From the IMG/VR virus record IMGVR_UViG_3300027861_000010: 64,000 nucleotides of DNA; one strand, written 5' to 3'. The notes under the pieces were generated by a model that saw only the letters and a program-made list of their open reading frames with translations, had not been told where the DNA came from and did not search any database. The position numbers and the translations under genes are program-made. This document shows, one piece after another, positions 61,770 through 62,340 of this stretch (its first letter is position 1; each line of letters opens with the position of its first letter). The stretch is from a virus.

Positions 61770-61808
61770 ACTGGTTTTTGGTGGCATAATTAGATGAAGG
61801 AAACCTTA
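61761..61808 (+). promoter_or_regulatory. Promoter-like motif copy 2
   Basis: CCTAAA-N14-GTGgCATAAT-N3-ATGAAGGAAACCTTA. Confidence 0.65.
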
Positions 61809-62340
61809 GCACTTTCAGCTGGGGTTTTTGGCTTAGTTCAGGTGCGATTCCTGGACTGAGTCCTTAACGGTCGAGTCTTCCCTCGGCTAAAGGCAAACAA
61901 ACGAGTCCCTCTTTTGTGGGCTCAAGTATTGTTCGCAGGCGGGTTGCCTACTATGCCCGTCTCTAGCTCACTGCGACTCTATCGCATAGTAAATCTCTTT
62001 GACTCTTTGCAGCCCCGTGGCAGGACACCACGGACTGTAGGAAGTGAGTCAAAACAAGCTGGAGTGATGTTCCAGCTGACAATAGTAAACCGTTGCAAGG
62101 CTCTGGTGGCTTAATTCCAGAGAGTCCACTTGCAATCGGAATCCATCCTGTAACCGAACAGCTCGGCTGTAATTTCACGGGGAAGTTCCGTGACGCTGTG
62201 ACCAGCGGACAAGGGCTTCGGCCTGGGTCAACGACACCATGAAACAGCCTCCCCGTGGCGGTGTTGGATAATCAACCAATGTTTCATTCCCTGTTTTTCA
62301 ATAGCCCGGCCAGGTTGCACCACCTGGTCGGGCTTCTCCA
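61794..62340 (+). ncRNA. Candidate large structured non-coding RNA
   Basis: About 550 nt with no credible ORF; at least ten stems identified by eye, including a T-loop-like 12-bp hairpin, a cUUCGg tetraloop and a long-range pairing. Confidence 0.55.

What the first reader, a model, noticed from the sequence alone, without database searches (positions are those of the whole stretch)
61794..62340. Candidate new large ornate ncRNA
An ORF-free ~550 nt stretch behind promoter copy 2. Stems found by eye: 61801-61827; 61831-61861 (12 bp, loop TGCGATT, like a tRNA acceptor/T minihelix); 61862-61893; 61903-61923; 61933-61976; 61998-62053 (TTTGACTC/GAGTCAAA outer stem, CCGTGG/CCACGG inner); 62057-62077; 62093-62135; 62175-62193; 62198-62230 (cUUCGg loop); 62233-62265; and a 13-bp terminal hairpin 62303-62334. 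TATTGT (61927) can pair with ACAATA (62079), closing a multiway junction. Many G-U pairs keep the stems intact, which favours RNA-level selection. The size is similar to phage-associated ROOL/OLE-class RNAs, but I cannot assign it to a family.
Basis: partly seen in the sequence, partly recalled or inferred. Interest (0 to 1): 0.8.

Follow-up and report, generated by a model that had tools for sequence, protein, structure and literature searches.

The report
New large structured phage RNA
A marine jumbo phage carries a roughly 545-base gene for a folded non-coding RNA that matches no catalogued family; its best-conserved part is a knotted RNA module also found in ultra-small (Patescibacteria) bacteria, and its function is unknown.

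Summary
Window 61770-62365 is a 596-nt gap with no conserved ORF, behind a phage promoter-like element. The + strand folds far better than shuffles (z -4.9).

Related phages carry a diverged homologue at the same place, after the MYG1-like gene (66-70% identity). On a plain MAFFT alignment of three of them, the window's structure keeps 83% of cells paired. Slid controls give 33-43%. 28 pairs show compensatory double changes, against 3-10 in the controls. G-U pairs outnumber A-C pairs, which points to a + strand RNA. Two homologues end in canonical terminators.

No Rfam 15 family, tRNA or tmRNA matches.

New here: the 3' domain (62131-62230) belongs to a compact pseudoknotted motif with invariant GUAAU, a GGGGAAGYUCC hairpin and CGC...GCGG. 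I found it in about 45 genome loci, mostly Patescibacteria. There it follows small unrelated genes and is often followed by a type III hammerhead. It is rare (3 of 150 further genomes), clustered, and absent from Rfam.

Earlier notes of this scan describe what looks like the same module on other DNA.

The function is unknown. My best guess is a stable, processed RNA whose 3' module is a recognition or protection element. No transcript data could be obtained.

The parts
61760..61793 (+). Phage promoter-like element (CTAAA..A-rich box, GTGNCATWAT -10-like box); copy 2 of two in the window
   Evidence: Direct repeat with 60275-60323. 12 copies in 5 related phages align with 19 invariant and 13 nearly invariant columns.
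61794..61829 (+). Conserved 5' start region (GAAGGRAAMCUUAGC) and first hairpin (61799-61810 with 61818-61829)
   Evidence: The first ~20 nt are shared by all promoter copies. The hairpin partner differs in L021.
61830..61862 (+). 13-bp minihelix with a T-loop-like 7-nt loop UGCGAUU (tRNA acceptor/T-arm look-alike)
   Evidence: L021 keeps a 13-bp helix with many changed pairs but a different loop. L026 has an acceptor/T-arm-like element here. Neither ARAGORN nor the Rfam tRNA model calls it.
61863..61892 (+). Hairpin (61869-61875 with 61882-61888)
   Evidence: Nearly identical in L026.
61896..61933 (+). Hairpin 61903-61908/61918-61923 with conserved loop CUCUUUUGU, inside a weak outer helix
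   Evidence: helices 1-3: inner helix 80% of cells paired; outer helix 64%, not convincing.
61937..61962 (+). Hairpin 'hpA': 8-bp stem with two conserved G-U pairs and a nearly invariant 10-nt loop
   Evidence: The search pattern built on this hairpin is present in window, L021, L026, L013, L137, L088 and L073. Helix 4 is 100% paired.
61966..61990 (+). Hairpin d
   Evidence: The stem changes UGCGA/UCGCA to UUACG/CGUAA in the L013 group.
61998..62053 (+). Long three-part hairpin e with apical loop CAGGACA
   Evidence: helices 7-8: 8 pairs with double changes. The apical loop is AGGACA in L026.
62057..62077 (+). Hairpin f; its loop pairs with 62144-62147 (pseudoknot)
   Evidence: Stem: 3 pairs with double changes (helix 9). 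Loop contact by eye: GAUG/CAUC in the window, GUGAA/UUCAC in L021, AAUGU/ACAUU in L026 (sequences).
62078..62090 (+). Conserved single-stranded linker (AAUWGUAAAC)
   Evidence: Present in all five lineages, though L021 diverges in its last bases.
62090..62139 (+). Hairpin g: two covarying stems, conserved apical loop (..CUUAA..) and a bulge
   Evidence: helices 11-12: 6 pairs with double changes.
62144..62147 (+). 3' strand of the pseudoknot with the loop of hairpin f
   Evidence: In the MAFFT register, helix 10 is 73% paired.
62154..62166 (+). P2: small hairpin 2 nt before GUAAU
   Evidence: 100% paired with 2 double changes (helix 13). A helix ends 0-3 nt before GUAAU in most motif instances.
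62169..62193 (+). Invariant GUAAU plus P3 hairpin with invariant GGGGAAGYUCC top
   Evidence: The four unconstrained stem positions pair in 46 of 52 instances, with 29 different stems.
62194..62211 (+). P4 hairpin (CGC...GCG), then G-ACA
   Evidence: GCGG follows in 49 of 52 instances, then ACA, AAA or UCA.
62212..62225 (+). Inserted UUCG hairpin (window and L021 only)
62226..62230 (+). 3' strand of pseudoknot PK2 (GGUCA with UGACC 62199-62203 in the P4 loop)
   Evidence: at least 5 bp of loop-tail pairing in 69% of instances against 31% after shuffling, with many different sequences.
62232..62266 (+). Hairpin in the variable 3' part
   Evidence: only; no comparative support.
62303..62334 (+). 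13-bp terminal hairpin, probable weak terminator (tail UCUCCAUU)
   Evidence: L021 (4661-4695) and L026 (3069-3035, minus strand) have canonical intrinsic terminators closing the unit. The window's own hairpin failed the U-tract criterion of the scan.

Best explanation
Window 61794 to about 62340 (+ strand) is a gene for a roughly 545-nt multi-domain structured non-coding RNA of a family not yet catalogued.

It is probably transcribed from a promoter type specific to this phage group and ends at a terminal hairpin. It is built from modules:
- a conserved 5' start and hairpin;
- a tRNA-like acceptor/T-arm minihelix;
- a central set of covarying hairpins (hpA, d, e, f, g);
- a 3' domain (about 62131-62230, tied to hairpin f by a loop contact).

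The 3' domain is a member of a widespread, uncatalogued pseudoknotted motif: P2, then GUAAU, then P3 with a GGGGAAGYUCC top, then P4 (CGC...GCGG), then a pseudoknot between the P4 loop and the 3' tail.

Inferred mechanism (not shown): the RNA acts as RNA in trans. The 3' domain would be its functional core, a compact fold that a conserved cellular or phage factor recognises, or that shields the 3' end from exonucleases. In Patescibacteria the same motif sits at the 3' end of single-gene messages that a hammerhead ribozyme cuts free. The minihelix may direct RNase P/tRNase Z-type processing. The MYG1-like exonuclease gene, which always lies upstream, may trim the RNA.

Shown: sequence conservation, structure, strand, unit boundaries and motif membership. 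Inferred: transcription, processing and function.
For: Folding: + strand z = -4.92 with 0 of 100 shuffles as stable.

Homologues: synteny is conserved (GT9 ... MYG1-like, ORF-free gap ... CsrA) in relatives whose MYG1-like protein is about 45-54% identical. The RNA stretch aligns with L021/L022 at 66% over 316 nt (E 6e-24) and with L026 at 70% over 329 nt (E 1e-39). The L013 group shares hpA and the 3' domain. A 65-nt block is about 95% identical between window and L021, far above the protein-level divergence.

Structure: on a MAFFT alignment not fitted to structure, 82.8% of cells pair against 33-43% when partners are slid. 28 pairs carry double changes against 3-10 in the slid controls, and 0 of 500 shuffles reach this.

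Strand: 9-15 G-U pairs against 0-5 A-C pairs.

Unit: the promoter-like element has 12 copies in 5 phages. Intrinsic terminators close the homologous units in L021 and L026.

Not coding: ORFs are not conserved and no gene was called inside the gap, apart from an extended start on L002 and a cut ORF at the end of L008.

Motif membership: a model built only from genome loci hits window 62131-62225 at 47 bits, with one hit in 64 kb. Features outside the search pattern are shared: complementary P3 stems, GCGG followed by A/U-M-A, the P4-loop pseudoknot, and P2 next to GUAAU.

Not in Rfam.
Against:
- Covariation for the large RNA rests on three alignable lineages plus the L013 group, and the tested structure was derived from the window itself, which inflates the paired fraction.
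- The 5' third and the last ~100 nt are poorly conserved.
- Modules are shuffled between relatives: L010, L015 and L199 have an ORF-free gap with other modules and no motif. The stretch may therefore yield several RNAs rather than one.
- The window's terminal hairpin lacks a good U-tract, so read-through into the next gene is likely.
- The genome loci were found with a pattern taken from the phage RNAs, so the model's score on the window is partly circular.
- Nothing tests the proposed function.
Confidence: 0.7

Rival explanations
1. It is a very long structured 5' leader that regulates the downstream operon in cis (100-aa gene at 62366 through to the CsrA gene), not a free-standing RNA.
For: The window's terminal hairpin has a poor U-tract (UCUCCAUU) and failed the terminator scan. 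A Shine-Dalgarno-like AAGGG and the ATG at 62366 follow within 32 nt. All genes lie on the same strand. The same promoter type also drives protein genes.
Against: L021 and L026 end the homologous unit with strong intrinsic terminators: 14-16 bp stems followed by U-runs. The conserved core lies more than 130 nt from the start codon. The variable part is the one next to the gene, the reverse of what an expression platform would show. In Patescibacteria the motif follows genes rather than preceding them.
Confidence: 0.12
2. The stretch is a cluster of several independent small RNAs or processing products laid end to end (leader hairpin, tRNA-like minihelix, central hairpins, 3' motif), not one ornate fold.
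For: Modules are gained, lost and moved between relatives. The tRNA-like element is 5' in the window and L026 but 3' in the L013 group. A 21-nt repeat module is found in L010, L015 and L026 only. L073 lacks about 56 nt between promoter and hpA. In bacteria the 3' motif stands alone at about 95 nt.
Against: There is one promoter-like element and one terminator per unit. Distances between anchors are kept to within a few nt in three lineages: 143/138/143 and 88/90/91 nt. A loop-to-distal-strand contact ties hairpin f to the 3' domain.
Confidence: 0.15
3. It is a DNA-level element (replication origin, packaging site or cruciform array), and the hairpins matter as DNA.
For: It is a dense run of inverted repeats in a non-coding gap. 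The - strand also folds better than shuffles (z = -3.17).
Against: G-U pairs (9-15) far outnumber A-C pairs (0-5) in the conserved helices, so pairing is kept on the + strand only. The pseudoknots covary. There are no iterons or AT-rich block, and cumulative GC skew keeps rising through the region. A promoter-like element and terminators frame the unit.
Confidence: 0.02

Closest known systems
ROOL (RF03087) and GOLLD (RF01998) large ornate RNAs
   Same: Size class (ROOL averages 581 nt). Many helices and pseudoknots. Often encoded in phages or prophages and next to tRNAs (PMC5737381). Here a tRNA-like minihelix lies inside the RNA. Function was unknown when they were discovered.
   Different: No sequence or structure match: Rfam 15 models give nothing even at E <= 10. 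The conserved nucleotides are different. The conserved core here is a ~95-nt motif that also exists on its own in bacteria. Oligomeric cages (PMC12286853) were not tested.
Highly conserved motifs followed by terminators (drum, skipping-rope, DUF3800-I, FuFi-1; Weinberg et al. 2017, PMC5737381)
   Same: Compact motifs with riboswitch- or ribozyme-like conservation. They are not in 5' UTRs, are followed by a hairpin or terminator, and their biochemical role is unknown.
   Different: None of these Rfam families matches. The present motif sits directly after the stop codons of unrelated small genes and is often followed by a hammerhead.
Hammerhead-punctuated operons / clustered type III hammerheads flanking single genes (Perreault et al. 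2011, PMC3088659)
   Same: In the bacterial loci the motif belongs to units of hammerhead, small gene, motif, hairpin, hammerhead (L151: three type III hammerheads with E 1e-7 to 3e-4).
   Different: The phage window and its relatives have no hammerhead core. There the motif ends a non-coding RNA, not a gene.
tRNA-like structures used as RNA processing signals (acceptor/T-arm minihelices as RNase P substrates; established knowledge)
   Same: 61830-61862 is a 13-bp coaxial helix. Its 7-nt loop matches the tRNA T-loop at 6 of 7 positions and is closed by a G-C pair.
   Different: It has no D or anticodon arm and no CCA. tRNA finders do not detect it. L021 keeps the helix but not the loop. Processing was not tested.
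CsrB/RsmZ-type CsrA sponges
   Same: A CsrA gene lies about 1.6 kb downstream in all relatives. One apical loop reads CAGGACA.
   Different: GGA is not enriched: 1.8 per 100 nt against 2.2 in the whole window. There is no array of GGA loops.

Membership tests
ROOL / GOLLD / OLE / HEARO / raiA (Rfam large ncRNAs) | Match to the family covariance model | tested here: not met
   cmscan of the whole window at gathering score gave 0 hits. cmscan of 61600-62500 at E <= 10 with permissive filters gave 0 hits.
tRNA / tmRNA | Cloverleaf or tRNA-like domain recognised by ARAGORN or Rfam | tested here: not met
   ARAGORN found 0 genes in the window and in L001, L010 and L013. No Rfam tRNA or tmRNA hit. 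Only a T-arm-like minihelix is present.
Hammerhead or other catalogued self-cleaving ribozymes | Catalytic core (CUGANGA ... GAAA) or an Rfam ribozyme model match | tested here: not met
   No core pattern in the window or in the phage homologues. No Rfam ribozyme hit.
Uncatalogued GUAAU / GGGGAAGYUCC pseudoknot motif (defined here) | GUAAU, then a P3 hairpin whose outer stem is free to vary under an invariant GGGGAAGYUCC top | tested here: met
   Window 62169-62193. The four free positions pair in 46 of 52 instances with 29 different stems. 8-19 double changes per pair among 42 sequences.
Uncatalogued GUAAU / GGGGAAGYUCC pseudoknot motif (defined here) | P4 closed by CGC/GCG, then G and A/U-M-A, then a strand that pairs with the P4 loop | tested here: met
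   Window: CGC..GCG 62194-62207, GACA, and UGACC/GGUCA with an inserted UUCG hairpin. At least 5 bp of pairing in 69% of instances against 31% after shuffling.
Uncatalogued GUAAU / GGGGAAGYUCC pseudoknot motif (defined here) | A helix ending 0-3 nt before GUAAU, in many bacterial instances part of an H-type pseudoknot with a UAAAC linker | tested here: inconclusive
   The window has a 4-bp P2 (62154-62166) that covaries in L021 and L026 (helix 13). The generic scan is only modestly above shuffles (71% against 38% with at least 5 bp). In the window the H-type knot is replaced by the contact between the hairpin f loop and 62144-62147.
Uncatalogued GUAAU / GGGGAAGYUCC pseudoknot motif (defined here) | Position directly after the stop codon of a small gene | tested here: not met
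   In bacteria the stop codon lies about 35-46 nt before GUAAU. In the window the motif is preceded by about 340 nt of non-coding RNA.
CsrB-like sponge | Many GGA motifs, mostly in hairpin loops | tested here: not met
   10 GGA in 547 nt, below the window average.

The most novel reading that the evidence does not exclude
The ~95-nt GUAAU/GGGGAAGYUCC double-pseudoknot domain is a new class of functional RNA fold: a new self-cleaving or ligating ribozyme, a ligand-binding aptamer, or a mimic that captures a conserved host enzyme. Jumbo phages would have built it into a ROOL/GOLLD-sized RNA to take over host RNA metabolism or to counter a defence. The phage RNA would then be the first large ornate RNA whose active core can be studied as a minimal stand-alone motif.
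Probability: 0.2. Interest if true: 0.9.

Novelty: new variant of a known kind. Interest (0 to 1): 0.72.

Why it matters
Large, intricately folded bacterial and phage RNAs are rare, and those studied so far have proved biochemically remarkable. This one has three features that make it easy to work on.

- Its unit is well defined: a promoter-like element, about 545 nt, and a terminator.
- Diverged homologues are available for covariation analysis.
- Its conserved core also exists as a ~95-nt stand-alone motif in Patescibacteria. There it has nearly invariant junction nucleotides and two pseudoknots, the signature of ribozymes and aptamers. The small version can be tested at the bench straight away.

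The link between jumbo phages and the hammerhead-punctuated gene cassettes of ultra-small bacteria is unexpected. It suggests a shared RNA-processing or RNA-stability device that moves between mobile elements.

Tried and rejected
- Rfam at gathering and at E <= 10, and ARAGORN: nothing.
- INPHARED phage records by blastn: no match.
- IMG/VR scans with three flanking proteins and one RNA word: no relatives.
- First metagenome scan with the MYG1-like protein: none.
- The hpA pattern scan of metagenomes returned 120 loci. Only about 6 are homologues; the rest are chance matches.
- CsrA-sponge idea: rejected because GGA is not enriched.
- Small-peptide idea (ATG at 61794, 21 codons; 66-aa ORF): rejected because the frames are not conserved.
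- Integron attC reading of the bacterial cassettes: rejected by reasoning. Pseudoknot covariation and an invariant hairpin top do not fit an attC hairpin. No integrase search was run.
- A possible kissing contact between the hpA loop and GUAGG in hairpin e: the partners lie inside helices, so I dropped it.
- Literature searches for the motif sequence and for hammerhead-associated motifs in Patescibacteria found no description.
- Pfam and PHROGs found nothing for the small genes next to the RNA or to the bacterial motif.

Full report
**What is there.** All long ORFs of the window lie on the + strand. They include a baseplate wedge protein, a 1686-aa collagen-repeat fibre and a GT9 glycosyltransferase, so this is a phage. 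The longest contig carrying the neighbouring MYG1-like protein is 213 kb.

The finding lies in a 596-nt gap (61770-62365). It sits between a MYG1-like exonuclease gene (60909-61769, PF03690) and a 100-aa gene that starts at 62366. On the near-identical metagenome contigs, gene callers placed no gene inside the gap. The exceptions are an extended start of the 100-aa gene on L002 and a cut minus-strand ORF at the end of L008. The largest ORF in the gap is broken by stop codons in the homologues.

**Checking the observation.** Its energy is -225 kcal/mol against -191.5 +/- 6.8 for dinucleotide shuffles (z = -4.92). The - strand gives z = -3.17.

The 'promoter copy 2' is a real repeat of 60275-60323. 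With copies from four related phages, 12 sites align. They share a CTAAA/A-rich box, a GTGNCATWAT box and about 20 conserved bases after it. This looks like a promoter type specific to the phage group, and it stands in front of both protein genes and this RNA.

**Homologues.** The RNA stretch has no match in INPHARED or IMG/VR. It is 100% identical on eight contigs of the same phage, which tells nothing about covariation.

Relatives were reached through the MYG1-like protein, whose homologues are about 45-54% identical. They keep the gene order: GT9, several small genes, MYG1-like, an ORF-poor gap of 0.4-1.3 kb, and in most a CsrA gene further downstream.

- The gap of L021/L022 aligns with the window at 66% over 316 nt (E 6e-24).
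- A scan for the most conserved hairpin added L026 (70% over 329 nt), the L013 group (L013/L052, L137, L088, L073) and a fragment, L061.
- One 65-nt block is about 95% identical between window and L021. That is far above what the flanking proteins show.

**Structure and strand.** I aligned window, L026 and L021 over 61893-62235 with MAFFT alone (A6). I then projected the window's helices, plus two pseudoknots, onto that alignment.

| Measure | Structure | Partners slid by 1-3 columns |
|---|---|---|
| Cells paired | 82.8% | 33-43% |
| Pairs with changes on both sides | 28 | 3-10 |

None of 500 shuffles reached the observed values. The window pairs by construction. The other two sequences still pair in about 74% of cells, by my arithmetic.

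The best-supported elements are hairpin e, hairpin f, hairpin g, P2 and P3. hpA and hairpin d are too conserved to be informative within this trio. In the L013 group the stems of hairpins d, e and f differ in sequence but stay complementary.

G-U pairs number 9-15 per sequence against 0-5 A-C pairs. The pairing is therefore kept on the + strand only. This argues against a DNA cruciform and against an antisense RNA.

The homologous units of L021 and L026 end in textbook intrinsic terminators. The window's 13-bp terminal hairpin has a weak U-tract.

I do not accept it.

**An unexpected relative.** A pattern built from positions invariant in all phage copies (GUAAU, five free bases, GGGGARGYUCC, four free bases, CGC) hit 47 loci among one-genome-per-species contigs. 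Most are Patescibacteria MAGs. A few carry Gammaproteobacteria, Obscuribacterales, Bdellovibrionales or Thermodesulfovibrionales labels. It also hit one IMG/VR contig. I estimate about 17 chance hits for a collection of this size.

The hits are not chance, because features outside the pattern are shared:

- The free positions form a helix in 46 of 52 instances, with 29 different stems. Per pair, 8-19 double changes are seen among 42 sequences.
- GCGG plus A/U-M-A follows in 49 of 52 instances.
- The P4 loop pairs with the tail 3-6 nt after GCGG. At least 5 bp form in 69% of instances against 31% after shuffling, through many different sequences.
- Upstream, many instances form an H-type pseudoknot with a UAAAC linker whose second stem ends next to GUAAU. 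I read this from the alignments. The generic scan is only modestly above shuffles.

A covariance model built from 30 bacterial instances finds exactly one site in the 64-kb window, 62131-62225 at 47 bits. It also finds one site in each of L021, L026, L013, L073, L088 and L137, and none in L010, L015, L017, L023, L197 or L199. This score is partly circular, since the pattern came from the phage RNAs.

No Rfam 15 family covers the motif, at gathering score or at E <= 10.

**Context of the motif in bacteria.**

- It lies just after the stop codon (about 35-46 nt before GUAAU) of small, mutually unrelated ORFs with no Pfam family.
- A hairpin usually follows it. In 12 of 51 cases a hammerhead core lies about 61-107 nt further on (about 62 nt in most).
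- L151 shows three type III hammerheads (E 1e-7 to 3e-4) bracketing two units of gene plus motif.
- Neighbouring genes include gyrB, topA, polA and RNase Y, so these are chromosomes.
- The motif is low-copy: 1-3 matches in each of five genomes, two of them back to back.
- It is patchy: found in 3 of 150 further genomes sampled from the phylum, one of which has four copies within 3 kb.

This is the pattern of accessory cassette islands.

Earlier notes of this scan describe hammerhead-punctuated operons in Patescibacteria with an undescribed pseudoknot ending swappable gene cassettes (e1-1136562, e1-1004502, e1-2569222, e1-882300). That appears to be the same module, seen before on other DNA. 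I did not compare the sequences directly.

**How the window's copy differs.**

- It is not behind a gene. It ends about 340 nt of structured RNA.
- It carries insertions: hairpin g, about 21 nt between the knot strand and GUAAU, and a UUCG hairpin inside PK2.
- The bacterial H-type knot is replaced by a plain P2 hairpin plus a contact between the loop of hairpin f and 62144-62147. That contact changes in step in three lineages: GAUG/CAUC, GUGAA/UUCAC and AAUGU/ACAUU.
- No hammerhead is present.

**Modularity.** The locus is a hot spot for RNA modules.

- The 13-bp minihelix 61830-61862 has a loop that matches the tRNA T-loop at 6 of 7 positions.
- L021 keeps the helix with many compensatory changes but has another loop.
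- L026 has an acceptor/T-arm-like element with a canonical T-loop at that place. The L013 group has such elements 3' of the core.
- L010 has a weak tRNA-Sec-like match (24.6 bits, E 0.49).
- L010, L015 and L026 carry a repeated 21-nt module that the window lacks.

The stretch may therefore be processed into pieces.

**Function.** Nothing was tested, and transcript data were not obtainable.

The invariant junction nucleotides and the double knot of the core suggest specific recognition or chemistry rather than mere stability. Its place at the 3' end of ribozyme-released messages suggests a 3'-end device for protection or recognition. My working model is a stable trans-acting phage RNA whose 3' domain is recognised by, or shields against, a conserved RNA-metabolism factor. 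tRNA-like processing would act at the minihelix. I give this roughly 0.3.

A CsrA-sponge role is unlikely because GGA is not enriched. The neighbouring MYG1-like exonuclease is a candidate partner on synteny alone.

**Verdict.** This is a real, new family of large structured phage RNA. Its core belongs to a widespread motif that Rfam does not hold.

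Noticed in passing
window 60275-60397: Promoter copy 1 is followed by the same conserved start, a short hairpin and a U-tailed hairpin (a run of six T near 60368) before the RBS and ATG at 60398. This could be a leader or attenuator of the gene pair 60398-60907 / 60909-61769.
   Followed up: partly
window 60296-61769: the ORF listing shows two long overlapping frames (60296-60907 and 60444-61769). 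The database protein is 286 aa (60909-61769), so these are two abutting genes and not a frameshift. The MYG1 domain starts right after 60907.
   Followed up: yes
L151:2500-3800 (also L163, L167, L170, L175, L177, L193, L195): Patescibacteria-type chromosomes carry tandem units of type III hammerhead, long 5' hairpin, small unknown gene, pseudoknot motif, hairpin and next hammerhead. This is a natural RiboJ-like insulation of single genes.
   Followed up: partly
L010:6100-6540, L015, L026:3100-3650 (minus strand): A 21-nt module (a GUCC..GGAC hairpin followed by GUUAAACACG) recurs two or three times per RNA locus in relatives. In L010 and L026 it is next to a duplicated ~55-nt block. It is absent from the window and its role is unknown.
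   Followed up: no
L010:6541-6617; L010:5905-5940; L013:6155-6205; L088 and L073 3' parts: tRNA-like elements with canonical T-loops (GGUUCGAUUCC, GGUUCAAUUCC) but no full cloverleaf lie inside the ORF-free RNA loci of related phages. The best Rfam score is tRNA-Sec at 24.6 bits, E 0.49.
   Followed up: partly
L001:7103-7297 and the equivalent place in L010, L013, L015, L021 (just beyond the window's end): A CsrA-family gene (PF02599) lies about 1.6 kb downstream of the RNA locus in all relatives checked. First-reader notes report further GGA-rich small RNAs and another csrA elsewhere in this genome.
   Followed up: no
window 51725-56785: A 1686-aa protein made almost wholly of collagen Gly-X-Y repeats (Pfam Collagen, E 1e-152). 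It is followed by a GT9-type glycosyltransferase gene (57160-59193).
   Followed up: no
G003:C6:17039-17233: Two copies of the pseudoknot motif lie back to back, 1 nt apart, in one Patescibacteria genome. The arrangement recalls tandem aptamers.
   Followed up: no
L167:4909-4977: A DUF3800-IX RNA (Rfam RF02968, 43 bits, above gathering score) lies between two copies of the pseudoknot motif on the same contig.
   Followed up: no
window 62241-62248 and 62280-62287: AUGAAACA and UGUUUCAU are perfectly complementary. They could form an alternative helix in the variable 3' part. There is no homologue to test it.
   Followed up: no
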